64,000 nucleotides of DNA from the human T2T-CHM13v2.0 reference genome, Homo sapiens, in NCBI RefSeq assembly GCF_009914755.1, contig NC_060932.1; one strand, written 5' to 3'. The notes below the pieces were generated by a model. That model ran no database searches and was not told the origin of the DNA. It saw only the letters and a list, made by a program, of their open reading frames with translations. A program made the translations under genes and the position numbers. Below are positions 1,421 to 62,039 of this stretch, one piece after another. Within the stretch, counting starts at the first letter, position 1. Each line of letters opens with the position of its first letter.

Positions 1421-1427
1421 GTTAGTC

Positions 1428-1615
1428 AGTTGAAGAGTAGCCCCCAAAGAAATGTCCACTCACAACCTCTGAATATGAACTTATTTGTAAATATCTTCTT
1501 TGCAGATGAAACTAAGTTAAGGATTTTAAGATGAGATCATAATGGATTTAGAGTCGGCTCTAAAATCAATGACTAGCGTGGCTAATCGTCCTTAGAAGAA
1601 GAGGACAAAACACAG
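1428..1615 (+). mobile_element. MLT1 (MLT1C-like) MaLR LTR, 5' part
   Basis: acctctgaatatgaacttatttgtaaat...tttgcagatg...aagatgagatcat...aatcaatgact matches the MLT1 5' motif series. Confidence 0.6.
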
Positions 1616-1675: not shown

Positions 1676-4900
<3,225 letters not shown>

Positions 4901-5836
4901 ACATTGTTTCTCAAACTTAAAAATGAAAAGCAAACAACAAACAAAAAATATATGTCTTTCTTCAAGTATAAATAAAGGAATTTCACAAACATGTTACATA
5001 TGTAGAAAATAAAATTGCAGTTATTCTTATTACAATTAGTATGCAACAAAAATGTTAACATTTTATTGGGAAATGCTACCTGGGATTAAGCAACTGCAAA
5101 AAAGTTGCAGCTGCCCAAAGTTTGCCTGCAATCTGAATAAAGATAACATTTAAACAATACAATTGTTTTATTACTTGTCCATTTAACACCTGTAGTGATT
5201 AAGTGTCTACTCTGTGCTAGATATTAGTGATATACGGATAATTAAGATACTTTGCCTTTCAGTAGGAACCACCACAATGAATTGTTTATTGCAATCATTT
5301 GGTAAGAACTAAAACTAGGTTATATGCAATGCATATTGGTGAGAAAAAGGAAAAAATCATCAACTCTACTGTGCTGAGATATCTGGAAAACTTCACTTTA
5401 ACAACAGGTAGAAATGTAACTTACAAAATGAGTTGACCAAGGCCCCAAACTAATCTGCCATTATGATCTTCCATCATTGCATCTAATTTCTTGATGGATA
5501 ATTCACTTAACCCTTTTCCTATTTAGAAAAAAAAATAAAAAAGGTGCAGCTTGTTGCCAATGCTCACATAATTTTACATAAACACGCTCTCTGAGGGTGA
5601 AGCAAATCTGATTTTCAATGTGAAAATAAAATATAAACATTGTTCTTGGAATTATTTCTAAGCAGTACTAACATCAGAATTGTCTGAATAAACTGAAATG
5701 TCCGTTTTGGAAAACACTGGATTCATCAAATGAATCTTCAGGCAACAACTGTTTGAGAATGATGTTAATGTCACCCATAGGAATGCTACATTTTCTAAGA
5801 GTTGACATTTTCAGTGATCAAGAATTACTATATTTT

Positions 5837-6665
5837 ACCATGCAAAAGCTCTTTCGTTTAAGTCCCAGCTATTTATTTTTATTTTTACTGCATTTGATTT
5901 TGGGTTCTTGGTCATGAAATCCTTGCCTAAGCCAATGTGTAGAAGGGTTTTTCCGATGTTATCTTATAGAATTTTTATAGTTTTAGGTCTTAGATTTAAG
6001 TCCTTAATCCATCTTGAGTTGATTTTTGCATAAGCTGAGAGATGAGGACCCAGTTTCATTCTCCTACATGTGGCTTGCCAATGATCCCAGCACCATTTGT
6101 TGAATAGGGTGTCCTTTCTCCACTTCATGTTTTGTTTGCTTTGTCAAAGATCAGTTGGCTGTAAGCATTTGGGTTTATTTCTGGGTTCTGTATTCTGATC
6201 CATTGGTCTATGTGCCTATGTTTATACTAGCACTATGCTCTTTGGGTGACTGTGGCCTTATAGTATCATTTGAAATCAGGTAATGGGATGCCTCCAGATT
6301 TGTTCTTTTTGTTTAGTCTTGCTTAGACCATGTCGGCTGTTTTTGGGTTCCATATGAATTTTAGGATTGCTTTTCCTAATTGTGTGAAGAATGGTAGTGG
6401 TATTTTGATGGCAATTGCATTGAATCTGTAGATTGCTTTTGGCAGTGTGGTCATTTTCACAATATTGATTCTACCCACCCATGAGAATAGGATGTGTTTC
6501 AATTTGTTTGTGTCATCTATGATGTCTTTCAGCAGTGTTTTGTAGTATTCCTTGTAGGGGTCTTTTACCTCCTTGGCTAGGCATAGTTCCAAATATTTTA
6601 ATTTTTTTTGCAACAGCTATTGTAAAAGAAGTTGAGTTCTTGATTCTCAGCTTGGTCACTGTTAG
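5837..6665 (-). mobile_element. Internal L1PB ORF2 fragment; inverted copy of 2790-3613
   Basis: ORF 6323-6613(-) is L1 ORF2-like; no 3'UTR or poly(A); shares private mutations with the neighbouring L1PB1. Confidence 0.9.
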
Positions 6666-6666
6666 T

Positions 6667-6790
6667 TAGCTAGGCACGGTAACGCATGCCTGCAGTCCCA
6701 GCTACTATGGAGCCTGAGGTAGGACAATCGCTTGAGCCTAGGAGGTCAAGGCTACATGTAGTGAGCTGTGATCGTGCCACTGCACTCAAG
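6667..6790 (+). mobile_element. AluJ right-arm (FRAM-like) fragment without tail
   Basis: gcctgcagtcccagctact...cgcttgagcctaggaggtcaaggct...gatcgtgccactgcactc; ends before the normal 3' end. Confidence 0.8.
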
Positions 6791-6905
6791 TGGAGAGCAA
6801 GTCCTCACCAGACACCACATCTTTTGGGGAGTTGATCTTAGACTTCTCAGCCTCCAAAATGGTAAGAAATAAATTTGTGTTCATTATTTAAAAAAATAAT
6901 TACCA
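6791..6905 (+). mobile_element. MaLR LTR 3' fragment (MST/MLT1A-like)
   Basis: cctcaccagacacc...ttgatcttagacttctcagcctcca...agaaataaatttgtgtt, including the LTR AATAAA. Confidence 0.7.
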
Positions 6906-7769
6906 ATTTTGTAAATACTAAAACCAGAATGCTATAATTAGAATGATGTATTTTGCCCTCAAAGTCGATATACTAGAGCAATGCAAAAATATTAATAAAA
7001 GCGTGATATTTTGTGACAAAGTTATCTCAGGGCAAACGCTGCAGCTGCAATCACCACCGATATGGATTCTCGGGCAAACTGTAAAACGGTTAAATTTAAT
7101 ATCTTGCATATTGCCATTATATTATTCATGATGTTCCCTTTGCCTTGAATGTTCAACATCTCCTCACTCCTTTGTTCACCTATTAAAATCCCAATCATCA
7201 TTTAGGGTTCATTTCAATAATCCCATAGTCTTAGCAGAATCTATTGTTCCAGTCTTTGATCTCCCAAGCACTTGTGCAACTGAAGCAATAGTCACATAGC
7301 ATTAGTTTTAATTGTTTACACACATGGCTCCCTTCTCTTCAATTTTTTTCACTCCTGTTTGTTCTTATATCCCTTTACCCCAATCATGCGATCATACATT
7401 TATGTTAAAGTGAGATCAATGGAAATTTTTTCAATAAAGCAACTTCTGAGCCACGATAGTAAGTCAGCACAAAGATAGCATGGCCTATATCTACAATACT
7501 ATAATATATATGTACAGATTCAAAAGTATTCTTTATGATACTAAACATTCAAAAGACTGGCATTAGATGCTGGAATATGGTGAAGTGTTTTATAAATCTC
7601 AAAGTAGACATTTGAATATGATTAATGAAATACACATATGACTAAACTGCAAATACGTGAACTTGTTAACTCATTGATGTGCTACACAATACTCAATCAT
7701 CGTATTTATTTAACAGGGCTAGCCCATGCTCTAGCCAACATAAAAAGGCTTCAGTTTATTGTTATAAAT

Positions 7770-23374: not shown

Positions 23375-24620
23375 AGACAAAATCAAGAGATTGAGAATAC
23401 AAGCCACAAACTGGGAGAAAGTATTTGCAAAAGACACATCTGATAAAGGACTGCTATTCAAAATATACGACAAACTCTTAAAACTCTATGCTAAGTAAAT
23501 GAACAACCTGATTTTAAAAATGGGCAAAAGGTCTTAATACACATTGCACACTGCATGATATACAAGTGGCAAGTAAGCATATAAAAAATGTCCAACATTG
23601 TATATCATTTAATAAAATGCAAATTAAAACAAGTTACATCTTATTAGAATGGCCAAAGTCCAGAACACTGACAACCCCAAATACTGGTGAAGACATGGAA
23701 CAACAGAAACTCTCATTGATTCCTGGTGGAAATTCAAAGTGGTGCAGCCATGTTGAAAGGTAGTTTAATAGTTTCTTACAAAACTAAACATAGTCAGTTT
23801 ACGATCCAGCAATCATACTCCTTGTTATTTATACAAATGTATTGAAAACTTATGCCTACATAAAATCATGCACATGGATACTTATAACAGCTTTATTCAC
23901 ATTTGCCAAAACTTGGAAATAATCAAGATGTCCTTCAGTAGATGAGTGGATACACAGGGACACATCCAAACAATGGAATGTTATTCAACACTAAAAAGAA
24001 ATAAGCCATGAAATGAAACGGAGACAACTTCTACTAAGTTAAAGAAGTCAATCTGACAAAGATTACATACTATATGATTTCAACTATATGACATTCTGGG
24101 AAAAGCAAAACTATGGAAAAAGTAAGATTAGTCACTGTCGGGGGGTGAGGGGAGGGACGAATTAACAGGAAGGGCACAGTGGATTTCCAGGACAGTAAAA
24201 TTATTCTGTGTGATATCGTAACGGTGGATACATGTCATGATATACTTGTCCTAACTCAAAGAATGTGCAATTCCAAGAGTGAATATTAATGTAAACTCCA
24301 GCCTGGGTGACAGAGCAAGACTCGATCTCAAAAAAATAATAATAATAATAATAAAATAATGACTCTCAGTAAATATATACATCCTGGGCATGCATATACT
24401 TTTTAAGTAGTTTTAGCTTTAAAGATGGTTTGTAAACACAAAGATTTTATTTTGGGTGGTTATGATGTTCCATGGCATGTTCACTGATTGTAACAAATGT
24501 ACAACTCTGGTAAAGGGAGAGGTTTTATGTGGAGGCCGGGAGATAGGGTGTATATTGGAACTCTTTTTGTGTTCAAATTTGCTTTCAATCAAAATATTCT
24601 GTTAAAAATAAAATTAATTC
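23375..24620 (+). mobile_element. L1MC1/2-like 3' end
   Basis: ORF2 end (ctgggagaaagtatttgcaaaagac) and 3'UTR (aaaactatgga, ggtggatacatgtca, gattgtaacaaatgtac); interrupted at 24298-24451. Confidence 0.8.
24294..24451 (+). repeat. Local direct duplication of 24919-25080 (Alu 3' end + tail + unique flank)
   Basis: Both copies read gcctgggtgacagagcaagact...(aat)n...tctcagtaaatat...atacatcctgg...ctttaaagatggtttgtaaaca. Confidence 0.92.
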
Positions 24621-24666: not shown

Positions 24667-24973
24667 GGCCGGGTGTGGACTCACGCCTGTACAAATCCCA
24701 GCACCTTGGGAGGCTGAGACAGCTGGATCATTTGAGATCAGGAGTTTGAGACCAGCTTCGTCAACATGGTGAAACCCAGTCTCTACCAAAAATACAAAAA
24801 TTAGCTGGGTGTGATAGCACACACCTGTAATCCCAGCTACTCGGGAGGCTGAGGCACAAGAATCGCTTGAACCCAGGAGGCAGAGGCTGCAGGGAGCCGA
24901 GATGAGATGGTACCACTGAACTCTAGCCTGGGTGACAGAGCAAGACTTGGTCTCAAAAAATAATAATAATAAT
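24667..24973 (+). mobile_element. AluS (Sz/Sx-like)
   Basis: Full dimer with (AAT)n tail. Confidence 0.93.
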
Positions 24974-27299
24974 GATTCTCAGTAAATATGTTATATACAT
25001 TATATACATCCTGGACATGTATATATTTTTATAAGTGGTTTAACTTTAAAGATGGTTTGTAAACATAAAAATTTTCTATTCGTCTTCATTGTGAGCAGCC
25101 TATGTCTGAAGCTCTGTCTAACATTAAGATACATTATGCACTCTAATTAAAGTTTATTTAAAGTCAATCATTTCTTTTCAGGAAAAAACTTCCTTATTAC
25201 TTTCTGGAATATTTGCAATTGAAATAATCAATTTCCCATAAACGAGAATTTGAACAACAAGACATTTTTGTTTATTTTGTCTTTTTCTTGTTTGGGTACT
25301 AAGTGTCTCATAACACATTATTTACAAATAAGTTGGATTCCAAAACTAAAAGATTGACATAAAATCTGCCTGCAGGGAGAAGAAAAAGAAGCCCAAATTG
25401 TAAGTCTTCTTATCGGTCCCCCAGTAAGAAAATGATTGAAGGTGGTAACAGAAGAAAGAATCTTAGGAGGGAAACTGCAAATATTACCTGCTTTACATTC
25501 TTAGTCAAAATTCAGAATTTAAGCAGCATGCTAATCCCTACAGATTTTTCAGTTTGGGCAAAAGCGAGAATGTTCTCATCTTTAACAATGTTCAGAAATG
25601 TCACAAGACTACTTTCATTCAAAAATCTACTTTGCAATGGTTTTCTAAATGGTTTCCAAAAATTCTGTCAGTTTTTAAAAAGAGTGATTCTTAAATACAC
25701 AGAGCTTTAAATACAGAACTGTCTCCTAAAATTATTTTCTCTTGATTTGACATTCTGAGTGTCAAAATGATTTAACATAAATTACCAGAAATATTCTTAT
25801 ATTTTACTTGGTTATTTACACATTAATGACAGTGACACAAAAAAAAAATAATTGTTTTTAATGAATCTTTGTGAACAGACACTACCCCAAAAGGATATTG
25901 ACCTTCCAGTTGCTATCTACGATGACGTCCGCAGCAAGAATTTGGGGAATGGCCATTTCCTTAAACTCTGGATGGCCTTAATGCACCTTCAGATATTCTG
26001 TGTCAGATAGTAAGAGCCAAGGTATGGTGGCAGGATTTCTAATATGTAGGTTAAGAAGGTTGATTGGTCTGCTTTACCAGTAGGAGAATCTCATTTTGGG
26101 TAGTGGAGCATTTAAAAGCAAAACAAATCTGGACTTTAGGAACTGGGAAGACTTCATTACTGTAAATGAAGCCAACACGGGAAACATGCTACCTTAATCC
26201 TGCTGAGGTTAAACACTTCTAACAAACTGTATTTAGTTCAGGAAAAAACCTTCACTGAAAATATTTGATAGTCATTTCTTAATTGTGCCTCTTCTCATCC
26301 GTTAGATAAATGAAGTTAACATTTAATTCATTTAATGAATTAAGACCAATACCAGTAAAATACCAATAATCTATATTAGGGAGTTAAAAAAAGTAGATAG
26401 TAAAGTTCATACGTAAAAACAGATACGAGTAGCTCAAAAACACTGTAAAAGAAATATGTGAAGGAAAAGTTGCCCTAAAAGGTAAAAACAAATCAATTTG
26501 TATAATAAAATTAGCATGGTATTGATACAGAAATAGACCAGTGAAATAGAATGGGAAGTCTCTAAGAAGACTCATGTGCAAATGTACCTTTGTATAAAGG
26601 ATAAGTGACATTTCAAATCACTAACATAAAGAGGAGCTTTTAACGGAGGGTGCTGGAGCAACTAAGTAGCCATTTAAAAATATTAAGGTTAAATATACAT
26701 CTAACATCATACACGACAATAAACTCCAAATGGATTAGGCATATACATGTAAAAATGAAATCATACAAGTGCTAGGAGAAGAGATGGGTAGATTTGTCTT
26801 TGAAGTTGGTGTAGGAAAAGTATTCCTACGGATAACTCAAACACAGAAGCAATCAAATAGAAGATTAACACATCTGACTACACAAATCTTTTAAAAATGC
26901 ATGCCAAAAACACCACAAGAGCAGTCAGAAATAACTTAATAAGAGGGAGAAAATATATGTAACATATACCATGGTTGAAGGGCTAATATTCCCACTATAT
27001 AGGGAATTCATAAAAGTTAAGGGACAGAGTAGTAAAGCTTACATAGAAAAAATGGAAAACCAAACATGATCAGACAATTTATAAATTAATATTTCAAAAT
27101 GAACTTCAAACAGGTAAAAAAGTAAAAAATCATAGTTAAGGAAATGTAATTTAAAACATAACTAAGGTACTGTTTTCTATTTATTATATAGGCAAAAATT
27201 TAAACTGTCCTAGTTGGTGAGTCTGGATAAACAGGCCCTCTCACATATTGCTGGTAGAAATGATCATCAGCCTCAAAGTGTTGAAGGGACATTTGCATG

Positions 27300-34189: not shown

Positions 34190-37100
34190 TTATTATTTTA
34201 GTAAAATTTACTATCTTAAATATTTTTAACCATACTATTTAGTGTTGTTTAGTACACTCATACGGTTGTGCTACTATCATTATCGTTTGTCTCTATAAGT
34301 CTTTTCATCTTGCATAACTAAAACTATACCCATTATAAAACTATGCCTCATTCGACCCAATTTTTTGACAACATTCATCTTTCTGTACCAGTTTTTAAAA
34401 ATTCTGTATTCTATTCCATTGGTCTATGTGCCTATTTTTGCCAGTACCACACTATTGATTACTGTAGCTTTAAAGTAAGTTTTGAAACCGGGAAGTATGA
34501 ACGCTTCCACTTTGTTCTTCTTTTTCAAGCTTGATTGTGCTCTTTGGGGTCCCAGGACATTCTATATAAATTTTAGGATTTTGTTTTCTATTTATGCAAG
34601 AAAAAGTCATTGGGATTTGGATAAGGATCGCATTGAATCTGTAGATCATTTGGGGTAATACTGTCATCTTAACAATATTAAACCTTCCAATCCATGGGCA
34701 TAGAATGTCTTTTAAGAATTTTTTTTTTTTGAGTTTTCTTTCATTGTACAAATGTATCACCTCCTTGGTTAATTTCTATTTCATTATTTCTGATGCTATT
34801 GTAAACTGAATTGCTTTTGTAACTTTCTTTTCAAATGGTTTATTTTTAATGTATAAAATACAACTGATTTTTTGTGTTGACTAATATTCTGCTACTTTGC
34901 TGAATAGGTTTATTAATCTTAACCATATTTTTGTGGAATCTTTAGGGCTTTCTATATTTAAGATCATATTATCTGCAAAAAGATAATTTTGTTTCTTCCT
35001 TTCCAATTTGTCATTTATTTTTACATATTTCTCTCGTTAGAATTTCTAATATTATGTTGAATAATATTAGAATGGAATCTCATGAGAGCTCAAATAGCCA
35101 AAAAACAGCTTGAAAAAGAAGAACAAACTGGGAGGGCTCACACTTTCTGATTTTAAAACTTATTATAAAGATACAGTAATCAATAGTGTAGTACTGGAAT
35201 AAACACAGGCATGTAGACCAATGGAAAAGAATACGAAGTTTTTAACAAGTGGTGTAAAAAAAAAAAAAACCCTGGATATCCACATGCAAAAGAATGAAGT
35301 TGAACCCTTACTTAATACCATATATAACAAAATTAACTAAAAATTAATCAAAGACCCAAATATGAAATCTAAAACTATAAAATTTTTTTAAGGAAACATT
35401 GGGCAAAAACTTCATGACACTGGATTTGGTAATGATTTCTTGAATATGATACTAAAGGCACAGACAACAAAACAAAACACAGACAAACCGTATTTTGTGA
35501 AAATATTTTCAAAAATGTGTAACAAAAGGCACTATCAGGTCTTGTTCTTGACCTAAAAGTAAAAGCATTTAGTCTTCAACCATTAAATTGATGTTTGCTG
35601 TTTTTCTAGACAGCTTTTATTATGTTAAGGAAGTTTCCCTCTACTCTTAGTTTTTTGAGTTTTTTATTATGACAGTGTGTTAAGTCTTGCCAAATGTTTG
35701 TTTGTTTCTGCATCAGTTGAGATGATCATGTGTTTTTCTGCCTTCATTCTCTTTAGGTGGTGTGTTACCTTGATTGACTTTTATGTGTTGAAACATCCTT
35801 GCATCCAGGAATAAATCTTATTGGCCATGGTTTGTAACCTTTTTAATATACTTTTTAATTCACTTTGCTAGTATTTTGTTGTGGAGCTTTGTATCAATGT
35901 TCATAAGGAATACTTGTCTCTAGTTTTTGTATCTTGTATTTTTGTCTTGCTTTGCTATCTGGGTAATGCTTACCACATAGGCTGATGTAGGAAGGTTTCC
36001 CTCCTCTTCGACATTTGTTAAAGTTTGAGAAGAATTGATGTTAGTTATTCTTTAAATTTTGGGTAGAATCCACTGGTGAAGCCATCAAATCTGGGGCTTT
36101 TCTTTGTCAGGAGATTTTTTTTTGGTTACTAACTCAATCTTCTTATCATTTATAGGTCTATTCAAATTTTCTATTTCTTTGTGATTTTGTCTTTCTATGA
36201 AGTTGTCCATTTCATTAAGGTTATCCAATTTTTAGTTCACAGTTGCATGTAGGACTCTTATAATCCTTTTTATAACTGTAGAATGGGTAGTACTGTCTCC
36301 ACCCTCAATTCTGATTTTGGAAATTTGAGTGGTATTTTTTTTTTTTTTTTTAGTTCATCTAGCTGTTTGCCAGTTGTGTTGATCTTTTCAAAGAACCTAA
36401 TTTGTATGTTGATTTTCTTTATTTTTTATTCTTTATTTTGTTTATCTCTGCTTTAGTCTTTATGATTTCTTCCCTTCTGTTACTTTTGGGTTTAGTTTGT
36501 TCTTCTTTTTATCATTCTTTAAGTTATAAAGTTTGTTTATTGACTTGAAACATATTTTGTCTTTTAAACATTTATAACTATAAATACGCCATGTAACACT
36601 GATTTTGGTGTATTCTTTAAGTTTTGCTATATTTCTATTTCCATTCACCTCTAAATATTTTTATATCCCTTGTGATTTTATCTTTTGATCATTGGTTGTT
36701 CAGAGTTTTTTAATTTCCATAAATATGTGAATTTTCCTGTTTCTCTTCTGTTATTGATTCCTAATTTAATGCCATTGTGGTTGGATAACACACTTTTTAT
36801 GGTATCTATATTTTAAAATATGCCAATACTTAATCTGTGGGCAAACATATGGTCTATCCTTGAAAAAGCCCCATGTACCCTTGAGAAGAATATGTATTCT
36901 GCTTTTGTTCAGTAGAGTGTTCCATATATCTCTATTATATCCAGTTTATTGCATTGTTCATGTCCCCTAATTCCTTACTTCTGATGTTTCTCCCTATTAT
37001 TGAAAGTAGAGTACTGAATCTTCACCTATTTTTGTACAACTGTCTGTTTGCCCCTTCAGTCCTGTCAACTTTTGCCTCATATGTTTTGATGTTCTGCTAT

Positions 37101-58660: not shown

Positions 58661-60208
58661 TGTGAATGATTACGTTTTAAAGTTAATTATTAAGGTGCAA
58701 ATCATGTAAAGCCAACAGTATTAGCATACATCTCTCATGGAATCTAACAGAATCCTGAACATTGGAACAGAGTAATAATTAGTAGAGCATGGAATGAAGC
58801 AGTTTCATGCAGTTCAGGACTATGTTGTCTGAAACATGTGTGCCACCTAAATATCACAATCAGAACAGTGATGTGTTCACACTAGGAGTGACTCTGAGCC
58901 CAGATTCACAGTCCTCATCTTTGATTCCTCCAGGGAATGTGGTTCCATAATGGAATCATTTGCCTTTAATAGGTTATCCAAACTGTCCTCTCTCTTTCCT
59001 TAGCTGTATGATCATGGTCCTTTAACACTTGACTTGTGTAGGGTCAGTTATATTCCACCTCATCATTTCCTAATGTAATTGTAAACGCTTTATTTTTATT
59101 GGTACTCTAAATAAGAATATGAAACCATCCTGTATCAAGTCCTGTTAAAATACTTGCAAGTATGTTGATTTTTAAAAAATAATAATATTTGTAAGCTATA
59201 AGGAATATAATATATTATGAGACAAATGATGTACGGCAAAGTATAGCACTTTATGCAATATAGATACCATAACATTGCCTCTCTTACTTTATGATTACTT
59301 GTTTCTCACCTAGATGTGCTGATTTGTGCTATACTGTTCCTTCCAGATTCTAAGAGTTTGAGTCTTGAAATGCTTTTGACTTCAAACCATTGTTCTTCTG
59401 TTTAGTGATAATTTATTTCAATTATGTTTCTTAGGGGTAAAATATTACTTGAGGATGGTTTAAACCTATAATATTGCTGAATCCTCAGCTGATTTTATCT
59501 TACCCCAGAGAGAAATTTCTTTGGCCAGGTGCCTGAGGGAATTAGTAATCTCAGAATTACTAATACTTAATATAATTTTAAGGTATTCGTACCTCAGTGC
59601 TACTTTTTAAAAACAGAGATTGTGTCACAAATCCAAATCTACATGTCATCTTTGGACAGGGGGCCTGCTAGTGTTGTCTGTCTTATTCCAATTGTAGCAC
59701 ATGTACAACCGAAGTGAGCGTCTTAAGGACTGGCGTTTCTACTCTGTAGTAAGTGTTATGACAAGTTTAATTCTGTTTTATCTTTTCTTTCAGGACACGA
59801 TCTTTTGGGTTTCCAGGAAACCTCAGTGGTTAATCAGGAACCCCACTTTTGAGAAGCTTTAAAAAACAACTTTTCTCCTCCTAAGTCCCTGAGGCTCCCA
59901 AATGTGCAGCTCAGACTTTTGGTGGCTTCTCCAGAAAAGTAAATTCCCTGACACGAAAAGAGTTCTGAACGCTGGATTCCCCTTTTAACTTCTTCTGGTC
60001 CTATCTAAATCGTGACCTGGTTGTTCCCTACTGTCTCACTAGTTTGATGATATTATTAATAAAACAAACAAAAACACATTTGTTGTCCTTTTATTAGAAG
60101 CCCAGGATTGATGGATTGATATTAATTCTATATTGTATTATGGATAAAAGTTTGAAATTCTGCGTCCCATCGCCACGGTTAAAGTAAGCTGTTTTCATCC
60201 ATTGCTTA

Positions 60209-60718
60209 TGAGCAAGAGACCACAATGGCCTGAACTCCCCTCCAGCTAGACAAAAGTTTAAAGAGGTTTCCTTCTTATGCTAGGCCCTTCGCTTGTGCTT
60301 CCTAAGATTACTCACTTCAATAAAGTTGCAATTGCCCCTTTGAGATGTAAATCATCCCCTAGCCTCTAGCCAGTTTTACAACATGGAAATGCCTCTCAAG
60401 GATCTCGGAGCTAACCCATTGAAATGTAATCATCTAGAAAGACAGTGCCCCAATCTTTCCATCACTGTGAGAAGTTAGGAACCTAACTTTCCTAAACTTC
60501 AATTAGAAAACACATGTGGCCTAATCACATTGACCAACCACTCTCCTAACATCAAGCAGTAGACTTCCCTCGCTAATGCAAACTCTCCTGCCTTTTGTTT
60601 CAGCAGAGTTGAATTCAATCTTTCTCTTTATTGCAATAATCTTGATCTCTTTTGCAATAGTCTTAAATAACATTTTCCCCACCTCTTTAACACCATCTCT
60701 TGCAATTTTTCTTTGACA
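60209..60718 (+). mobile_element. MER67/MER31-like ERV1 solo LTR
   Basis: tgag...gcccctttgagatgtaaatc...ggcctaatcacattgaccaacc...tttttctttgaca. Confidence 0.75.
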
Positions 60719-60919
60719 TTTAACTAAAGATTAATTAGTTCTGGAAATTTACCCTTTTTTTCCTCCATGGATTCAGCAGCAGTATCTAAAAGAAAAAAAT
60801 TCATCAACCAATTATATATATATAGATATACATAATATATATGTATATATATAATATAAAGATAAAACACTGCACCAGTGGAACTGAACATAAAGTAATT
60901 CAAATTCACAGAACGCATC

Positions 60920-61554: not shown

Positions 61555-62039
61555 AGCTCCCCTATCTCCCAGTCTCTGTGAGAGGTTAGGAATCTAACTT
61601 TCCTAGGCCTCAGTTAATAAATACATCTGGCCTAATCACATTGACTAACCTCTCTCCTAACATCATGCAGCAGATTTCACTGGCTCGCCAAAAAATTCTC
61701 CTACATTTTTTTTTTTTTTTTTTTTTTTCCTGAGATGGAGTCTCGCTCTGTCGCCCAGACTGGAGTACAAGTGGCACGATCTTGGCTCACTGCAACCTCC
61801 GCCTCCCAGGTTCAAGAGATTCTTGTGCCTCAGCCTCCTGAGTAGCTAGGATTAAAGGTGCATGCCACCACGCCCAGCTAATGTTTGTCTTTTTAGTATA
61901 GATGAGGTTTCACCATGTTGGTCAGGCTGGTCTCAAACTCCTAACCTTGTGATCCACCCGCCTTGGCCTTCAAAAGTTCTGGGATTACAGGTGTGAGCCA
62001 CCATGCCCGGCCAACTCTCCTGCCTTTTATTTCAACAGA
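61555..62039 (+). repeat. Local direct duplication of LTR segment 60444-60607, later split by an Alu
   Basis: Both copies read ctgtgaga(a/g)gttaggaa(c/t)ctaactttccta...ggcctaatcacattgac...ctctcctaacatca...aactctcctgcctttt. Confidence 0.85.
61706..62012 (-). mobile_element. AluSg-like
   Basis: Full antisense dimer; degenerate TSD aattctcctaca / aactctcctgcc. Confidence 0.92.

What the first reader, a model, noticed from the sequence alone, without database searches (positions are those of the whole stretch)
5837..6665. Inverted 830-bp L1 piece shares a nonsense mutation and other private changes with its neighbour
Seen: both copies have TGA in PDFK*YYK (3182-3184 + and 6266-6268 -), TTG in place of the KWK Trp (2948-2950 and 6500-6502), and GCC in place of the IPIK Pro (3038-3040 and 6410-6412). 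The L1PA3 in this window has L, W and P at these sites. Inference: an active L1 would not carry these, so the piece was copied from the already dead neighbour, or the two arms of this inverted repeat (2.2-kb spacer) underwent gene conversion. Many differences have since accumulated, so the event is old.
Basis: partly seen in the sequence, partly recalled or inferred. Interest (0 to 1): 0.7.

Follow-up and report, generated by a model that had tools for sequence, protein, structure and literature searches.

The report
Repair patch copied from two donors
A 1,061-base patch in an intron of SGCZ holds an inverted piece that shares private mutations with a dead LINE-1 2.2 kb away and a scrap that matches a spot on chromosome 2, likely copied in to mend a DNA break some 30 million years ago; it is a clear example of a known repair scar with no sign of function.

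Summary
Both copies carry TGA, TTG and GCC. Of 331 genomic places with the same context, only these two have the TGA. They share 15 rare bases against a mean of 0.9 and maximum of 6 in 860 control pairs and form the only firmly supported clade among 43 copies (100/99). The shared changes look neutral (2 of 16 synonymous) and span the whole piece, so it was copied after the neighbour died, about a quarter into its history.

The piece is only part of a 1,061-base insert in a TTAA-flanked DNA transposon. The other 234 bases are an Alu/LTR scrap whose junction recurs on chromosome 2, where it runs on at both ends. A decayed 14-base target duplication flanks the insert (12 of 14), and each end has microhomology to its own donor.

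Best reading: a chimeric repair-mediated duplication (Pace et al. 2009), longer than their 619-base maximum and from a donor class their screen excluded. Main rival: twin priming by the L1 enzyme on two RNAs. Gene conversion fits poorly. No function is evident.

The parts
1676..1973 (-). Inverted 5' part of the neighbouring L1 (A); shares 6 bases with the start of the forward part, as in twin-primed L1 insertions
   Evidence: window 1689-1973 matches related L1 copies on the opposite strand, next to where the forward part begins
1973..4900 (+). Forward part of the neighbouring dead L1 (A): late ORF2, 3' UTR and A-rich tail, with an Alu at 4527-4830 inside the 3' UTR; subfamily L1PB1 is a recalled label
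   Evidence: weak candidate target duplication 1665-1675 / 4899-4909 (9 of 11)
2789..3619 (+). Donor 1: the stretch of A that was copied; ends in an A run (3616-3620)
5507..5836 (.). Left part of the host DNA transposon, TTAA at 5507-5510 (MER75 by recall)
   Evidence: 12 of 12 fetched copies align; 11 of 12 are uninterrupted 511-524-base TTAA-to-TTAA elements
5823..5836 (+). Left copy of the 14-base target duplication; its last 4 bases (TTTT) are also donor-1 sequence; break context TTTT/G
5837..6666 (-). Piece B: inverted 830-base copy of donor 1, internal ORF2 fragment, no poly(A)
6664..6897 (+). Second piece: Alu right arm (6664-6787) fused to an LTR 3' part (6788-6888), then 9 extra A-rich bases; likely copied from G000:C2:158358160-158358380 (minus). 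Overlaps piece B by 2-3 bases at 6664-6666
6898..6910 (+). Right copy of the target duplication (12 of 14 matches, one gap); its first 6 bases also match the continuation of donor 2 (5 of 6 today)
   Evidence: 4 of 63,914 other 13-mers of the window score as well
6911..7093 (.). Right part of the host transposon, TTAA at 7090-7093; 12 bases missing after 6916 relative to intact copies

Best explanation
The 1,061 bases at 5837-6897 are an insert in a DNA transposon, likely made in one germ-line repair event in which each end of a staggered break copied a different stretch of chromosomal DNA. Shown: the insert has two parts, one sister to the neighbouring dead L1, one carrying an Alu/LTR junction that recurs on chromosome 2, and is flanked by a decayed 14-base duplication. 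Inferred: a break with 14-base 3' overhangs opened in the host element; the left 3' end (TTTT) annealed to the A run at 3616-3620 of the neighbour and copied 830 bases in inverted orientation; the right 3' end annealed to a 6-base match in the chromosome 2 locus and copied about 230 bases; the two new strands joined at a 2-3-base overlap (6664-6666) and fill-in duplicated the overhang. This is the two-template outcome of synthesis-dependent strand annealing. The break may have been cut by the L1 endonuclease (TTTT/G context). Age roughly 25-40 million years (inferred). That B was copied from A after A died is about 93% likely; that chromosome 2 is the second donor about 90%; that the templates were DNA rather than RNA is the weakest step.
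For: Sister status: 15 shared rare bases (in at most 3 of 40 copies) against mean 0.90, max 6 in 860 other pairs; 6 fully private against mean 0.24, max 4; only starred clade of 40 inner branches, 100/99, shared branch 0.023, tips 0.073 and 0.071. Dead template: 13 missense, 1 further stop, 2 synonymous among 16 shared rare changes, like neutral decay (235 of 1005 synonymous, p=0.39) and unlike states common among copies (14 of 22, p=0.0025). Direction: 11 of 12 fetched host copies are uninterrupted at this site; A and the chromosome 2 locus both continue beyond both ends of the copied parts. Second donor: junction pattern gave 10 hits, of which only chromosome 2 also matches the 17 free bases (14 of 17); one alignment covers 6664-6888 at 179 of 221; it shares a linker base seen in 0 of 40 unselected Alu arms and one seen in 2 of 40. 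Junctions. Host older than insert: 12% non-CpG divergence (95% CI 9-15%) against about 7% per branch. Precedent: 753 of 1,136 duplicons under 3 kb apart; 20 chimeras, all with one donor within 5 kb, 15 with the second on another chromosome; target duplications in 6 of 39 proximal cases (PMC2671141).
Against: Overall identity alone does not single A out: it ranks 28th of 39 other matches to B (86% against a best of 88%), and B 12th of 39 to A. The 830-base piece exceeds the 619-base maximum of published proximal cases. A 14-base duplication with TTTT/G at one end is in the 12-18-base range reported for L1 twin priming, and TTTT followed by a purine makes up only 7-11 of 1,222 positions in three host loci. 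The second piece is further from chromosome 2 (42 of 221) than B is from A (100 of 816; p=0.015; 14-15% without CpG-type changes). Point-change support for chromosome 2 is weak against look-alike controls (0 in the Alu part, 2 in the LTR part, controls 0-2), and neither DNA search listed the partner among its 40 scored candidates. No orthologue with the empty site was available.
Confidence: 0.62

Rival explanations
1. Twin priming in trans: L1 ORF2p nicked at TTTT/G and 14 bases away, and reverse-transcribed two unrelated RNAs from the two ends, a local transcript through the dead L1 (L1 sense) and a transcript of the chromosome 2 locus, both primed internally. Same donors, same timing, RNA instead of DNA.
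For: 14-base duplication and endonuclease-like context; the left primer sits on an internal A run; two-transcript insertions joined from opposite ends and insertions with nearby genomic sequence were seen after L1 induction in cells (PMC11702581); experimental break patches were reported to be RNA-derived (PMC5110952).
Against: No poly(A). An RNA need not come from 2.2 kb away. The left-end template would have to be antisense to SGCZ (gene table: minus strand) and A has lost its 5' end. No editing signature: A>G in B 13 of 45 against 207 of 1,188 (p=0.07), no A>G among 11 window-side changes in the Alu part. TTTT/G is not the TTTT/A consensus.
Confidence: 0.25
2. A and B descend from a common dead source elsewhere (or from a third copy since lost), and proximity is incidental or B came with the second piece as one pre-formed unit.
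For: Searches score only part of the family (40 of 10,550 and 40 of 12,924 candidates); exact patterns miss diverged copies (331 matched).
Against: No third copy with the TGA among 331 or with the 3551+3597 pair among 10; best other sharer of A or B has 6 rare bases against 15; A is a normal retrotransposed copy with tail and inverted 5' part; the chromosome 2 locus has Alu sequence, not L1, in front of the piece.
Confidence: 0.05
3. B was an independent L1 insertion later homogenised with A by gene conversion between the inverted arms.
For: The arms are inverted and 2.2 kb apart; a conversion of the whole 830 bases would give the same tree.
Against: B has no 3' end, tail or duplication of its own; it ends exactly at the host break in donor microhomology; shared bases and mismatches are both even along the piece (KS p=0.70 and 0.88) with no long identical run.
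Confidence: 0.05
4. The shared bases are subfamily variants or chance.
For: 3 of 19 shared non-majority bases are common (7-16 of 40 copies); neighbour is not the top hit by identity.
Against: 2 of 331; 6 bases in 0 of 40 copies; two stop codons among the shared changes.
Confidence: 0.01

Closest known systems
Chimeric repair-mediated duplication (Pace, Sen, Batzer, Feschotte 2009, PMC2671141; read parts 1-6 of 8, Table S1 by search, Figure S1 part 1 of 24)
   Same: Insert interrupts a transposon; donor within 5 kb; no poly(A); microhomology, filler and target duplication at the ends; second donor on another chromosome; short overlap where the two copies meet; age in the period of highest rate.
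   Different: First donor is itself a repeat, a class their screen excluded; 830 bases from one donor and 1,061 in all against a maximum of 619; the duplication (14 bases) and TTTT/G context point to L1 endonuclease. Not in their Table S1: no row with MER75 or SGCZ.
L1 twin priming and two-template ORF2p insertions (PMC11702581; passages and section 7 read)
   Same: 12-18-base duplication, microhomology at the second primer, two sources joined from opposite ends, nearby genomic sequence copied.
   Different: No poly(A)-primed part at all; template is a dead, promoterless neighbour; germ line and ancient rather than induced in cells.
Non-classical L1 insertions (Sen et al. 2007, PMC1920257; parts 2-3 of 7 read)
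   Same: L1 fragment cut at both ends, no tail, extra non-L1 DNA, in two of their cases from another chromosome.
   Different: That class requires no target duplication and a non-endonuclease site, and assumes RNA of an active L1; here there is a duplication and the source is a dead local copy.
Templated sequence insertion polymorphisms, classes 1 and 2 (PMC5110952; parts 1-2 of 4 read)
   Same: Patch copied from elsewhere, donor left intact.
   Different: Class 1 needs poly(A), class 2 has no duplication; this has a duplication without poly(A). One donor is local.

Membership tests
Repair-mediated duplication (proximal, Pace 2009) | Insert of 50 bases or more that interrupts a transposon whose two parts join within 30 bases | tested here: met
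   host resumes at the base after the left end (14 bases repeated, 12 lost nearby); 11 of 12 fetched copies uninterrupted
Repair-mediated duplication (proximal, Pace 2009) | One identifiable donor more than 50 bases and less than 5 kb away | tested here: met
   A, 2.2 kb away, identified by private bases rather than by their best-BLAST-hit rule, which A does not meet
Repair-mediated duplication (proximal, Pace 2009) | No poly(A)/(T) tail | tested here: met
   left end is 4 T shared by host and donor; a 7-A run lies in 9 extra bases at the right end, in the wrong place and sense for an L1 tail
Repair-mediated duplication (proximal, Pace 2009) | Microhomology, filler, deletion and/or target duplication at the breakpoints | tested here: met
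   4 bases left, 5 of 6 right, 9-base filler, 14-base duplication
Repair-mediated duplication, chimeric type | Second donor, with a short overlap between the two copied parts | tested here: met
   chromosome 2 locus with the same Alu/LTR junction; 2-3-base overlap at 6664-6666; base-level support modest
Repair-mediated duplication (proximal, Pace 2009) | Empty site in an outgroup genome | not testable with these tools
   no other primate genome held; intact paralogous host copies used instead, as that paper did for species without relatives
Repair-mediated duplication (proximal, Pace 2009) | DNA template (strand invasion) rather than RNA | tested here: inconclusive
   no editing signature; proximity favours DNA, duplication length favours the L1 enzyme
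Classical L1 insertion by target-primed reverse transcription | Intact 3' end with poly(A) | tested here: not met
   B stops about 900 bases short of A's 3' end
Classical L1 insertion by target-primed reverse transcription | Target duplication and TTTT/A nick | tested here: inconclusive
   14-base duplication present; nick context TTTT/G in 8 of 12 intact host copies, TTTT/A in 1
Non-classical L1 insertion (Sen 2007) | No target duplication of any length | tested here: not met
   criterion
Non-classical L1 insertion (Sen 2007) | 3' truncation and no tail | tested here: met
Gene conversion between inverted repeats | Pre-existing recipient with converted and unconverted parts | tested here: not met
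   shared bases even along the whole piece, no unconverted flank, no long identical tract
MER75 (host element) | TTAA-flanked piggyBac-type element of a few hundred copies | tested here: inconclusive
   TTAA at both ends, about 514 bases when intact, 450 first-look candidates against 475 MER75 in PMC4625184; no consensus library held, name recalled

The most novel reading that the evidence does not exclude
The L1 enzyme itself made this patch: it cut a 14-base staggered break and twin-primed on two templates that were not its own RNA, a dead L1 next door and a chromosome 2 scrap. Then part of the 'repair-mediated duplications' are hijacked retrotransposition events, and many annotated L1 fragments in primate genomes are local copies of dead neighbours, which inflates insertion counts and gives a way to date such events by private mutations.
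Probability: 0.25. Interest if true: 0.55.

Novelty: new member of a known kind. Interest (0 to 1): 0.33.

Why it matters
The locus itself is probably neutral: an intron of SGCZ with no exon or listed functional element on it (the gene table's nearest enhancer, 4565-4734, is in the Alu inside A). Its value is as a worked case. It shows that a repeat-derived donor can be identified by private mutations, which opens the class of local duplications that the 2009 screen had to leave out; it extends the size range (830 from one donor, 1,061 in all); and its junctions keep the whole geometry of a two-ended repair, with a possible L1 cut. A genome-wide version of this test would tell how many 'L1 fragments' were never retrotransposed and whether L1 endonuclease opened the breaks.

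Tried and rejected
Local donor for the Alu/LTR piece: none in the window or in the 10 kb before it. DNA searches with that piece or its LTR part listed only generic family members among 40 scored of 3,908 and 724 candidates; a pattern built on the piece's 4-base Alu insertion gave 24 rows with no matching junction, and the chromosome 2 locus lacks that insertion. Three separate donors (L1, Alu, LTR) was my first reading and was dropped. The Alu inside A as donor: different diagnostic bases, 77%. A hairpin at the left junction: none (z=+0.72). Editing or strand-biased damage marking RNA or single-stranded DNA: none significant (G>A in A p=0.047, one of 8 tests). Later conversion tract: none. 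Shared indels between A and B: none (5 in A, 5 in B). Family ages from print: the two standard papers were not held and passages in others gave none, so ages rest on distance. Rows dropped: of 56 non-local loci were duplicates of one another, leaving 40; one search used 28 before de-duplication.

Full report
Observation. The six codons are as stated, and the young L1 in the window has the ordinary states. Piece B (5837-6666, minus) aligns to the neighbour A at 2789-3619 (85.9%). A is a 5'-truncated L1 with an inverted 5' part and a tail near 4900. The labels L1PB1, L1PA3, MER75, AluJ and MaLR are recalled; no repeat library was held.

Is the sharing special? A pattern with the three variants and short fixed contexts matches 2 places in the genome, A and B; with N at the variant bases 331; with only the stop fixed, 2. 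A second pair of variants 370-410 bases further on is joint in 2 of 10 context matches, again A and B. In an alignment with 40 distinct unlinked copies (the best hits after 16 duplicates of 56 were dropped), A and B share 19 non-majority bases, 15 of them in at most 3 copies and 6 in none; 860 other pairs average 0.90 (max 6) and 0.24 (max 4). The controls were chosen for likeness to A or B, which works against the result. In a maximum-likelihood tree of 43 rows A+B is the only starred branch of 40 (100/99; bootstrap values rough), length 0.023, tips 0.073 and 0.071. Against: by plain identity A is only 28th of 39 other matches to B and B 12th of 39 to A, because the top hits are little-diverged copies (mean 5% from the majority, A and B 9%).

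Dead template. Of 16 shared rare changes 13 are missense, 1 makes a second stop (3222; B still reads TAG, A has changed again) and 2 are synonymous, one of them half of the two-base change that gives the TGA. Rare changes in unlinked copies are 235 of 1,005 synonymous (p=0.39); states in 8 or more copies, which reflect active source lineages, are 14 of 22 (p=0.0025). So the shared branch is neutral decay in a dead copy. About 24% (95% CI 15-36%) of A's history lay before the split.

Copy, not conversion. Shared bases (2853-3597) and mismatches are even along the piece (KS p=0.70, 0.88) and the longest identical run, 33, is below the null mean of 39. B has no 3' end or tail. It sits in a TTAA-flanked element (5507-7093); 12 of 12 fetched copies align to both halves and 11 are whole 511-524-base elements.

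The rest of the insert. After B come an Alu right arm cut at both ends and the 3' part of an LTR. No donor lies in the window or the 10 kb before it. A junction pattern (18 fixed bases, 1 mismatch) gave 10 hits and 4 control hits; one, on chromosome 2, also matches 14 of the 17 free bases. That locus aligns over 6664-6888 in one piece, 179 of 221, and continues into the Alu linker on one side and to the LTR end on the other, as a parent should. It shares two unusual Alu bases (0 and 2 of 40 unselected arms) besides three subfamily-type ones; 1 of 40 arms equals its count at the 10% threshold and none at 25% (only 4 arms were of like type). Against: no excess over look-alike controls, a larger distance than A-B (p=0.015), and neither DNA search listed the partner among 40 scored candidates. 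The exact junction is the main evidence; I put the donor at about 90%.

Junctions. The 14 bases left of the insert recur at its right end with one mismatch and one gap; 4 of 63,914 other 13-mers score as well, and none of 11 LTR copies continues that way. The duplication ends in TTTT, followed by G in 8 of 12 intact copies. TTTT is also the donor-1 sequence at that point. The first 6 bases of the duplication match the continuation of donor 2 (5 of 6 today; exact in 6 of 10 related LTR copies). The two pieces overlap by 2-3 bases at 6664-6666. Nine extra bases precede the right duplication, and 12 host bases are missing 6 bases beyond it (timing unknown). A shorter reading (5-base duplication, donor running to 6904) is possible and does not change the model.

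Mechanism (inferred). A staggered break left two 14-base 3' overhangs; each annealed to a few matching bases in a different template and was extended; the new strands met at the overlap; fill-in made the duplication. This is the two-template branch of synthesis-dependent strand annealing drawn by Pace et al. (PMC2671141, Figure 1 legend). They report 753 of 1,136 duplicons under 3 kb apart, 20 chimeras with one donor within 5 kb and 15 with the other on another chromosome, and duplications in 6 of 39 proximal breakpoints. The same geometry is that of L1 twin priming, with 12-18-base duplications; two-transcript and locally templated insertions were seen after L1 induction (PMC11702581). Sequence cannot separate DNA from RNA templates here: there is no editing signature; proximity, the lack of any poly(A) and the strand of SGCZ favour DNA; duplication length and TTTT/G favour at least an L1 cut. 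I give 0.62 and 0.25.

Age. A-B distance is 0.135 (K2P); at 2.2e-9 per site per year (rate quoted) that is about 31 million years. Distal 8p is reported to diverge fast (10.1101/233825, passage), and rates were probably different in early primates (own knowledge), so 25-40 is the honest range. The host is older (12% non-CpG); a related family was reported immobile since the human-macaque split (PMC2268245, passages). Chromosome 8 rows of Table S1 present in all primates show 5-17% (15 rows seen).

Novelty. A new member of a known kind. The 2009 screen excluded repeat donors and found none over 619 bases; its Table S1 has no MER75 or SGCZ row; a full-text search for SGCZ with MER75 found 0 papers; searches listed no paper on this locus. 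Most subscription papers are outside that library, and supplements of the bioRxiv-type papers (for example the chimera tables of 10.1101/2025.02.02.635956, of which I read the abstract and sections 19 and 23) were not seen. It fails the tests for classical L1 insertion and for non-classical L1 insertion (PMC1920257) and falls between the two classes of templated insertion (PMC5110952). No function is indicated. Interest 0.33.

Noticed in passing
window 24294-24448 and 24919-25075: Direct local duplicate, 625 bases apart, of an Alu tail plus about 100 bases of flanking sequence (82% with gaps); may be another local duplication or a long duplication around the Alu at 24692-25038.
   Followed up: partly
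window 60448-60600 and 61559-61713: Direct 155-base duplicate 1.1 kb apart (78%); the first copy is embedded in longer LTR-like sequence (recalled likeness), the second is isolated next to a T run and an Alu. Candidate second repair-mediated duplication, overlapping the listed enhancer 59981-60733.
   Followed up: partly
window 34387-34565 and 35072-35253: Two old L1 pieces in inverted orientation 0.5 kb apart, 79% alike; not tested for shared private bases.
   Followed up: no
window 1676-1979: The neighbour L1 has an inverted 5' part with a 6-base overlap at the junction, a typical twin-priming product.
   Followed up: yes
window 4527-4830: Alu inserted in the 3' UTR of the neighbour L1 with a short flanking repeat.
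   Followed up: no
L003 and L004 (C16:76722238, C1:148004217): Two L1 copies on different chromosomes with the same score and near-identical sequence over 2.8 kb: a recent interchromosomal duplicate.
   Followed up: no
L098 (C2:158358020-158358560): The second donor is itself a nest: an Alu fused by an old deletion to an LTR end, with an oppositely oriented Alu just in front.
   Followed up: partly
window 1425-1615: LTR-like 5' fragment just before the neighbour L1 (recalled likeness); no match elsewhere in the window or the 10 kb before it, and not shown to be related to the LTR piece in the insert.
   Followed up: partly
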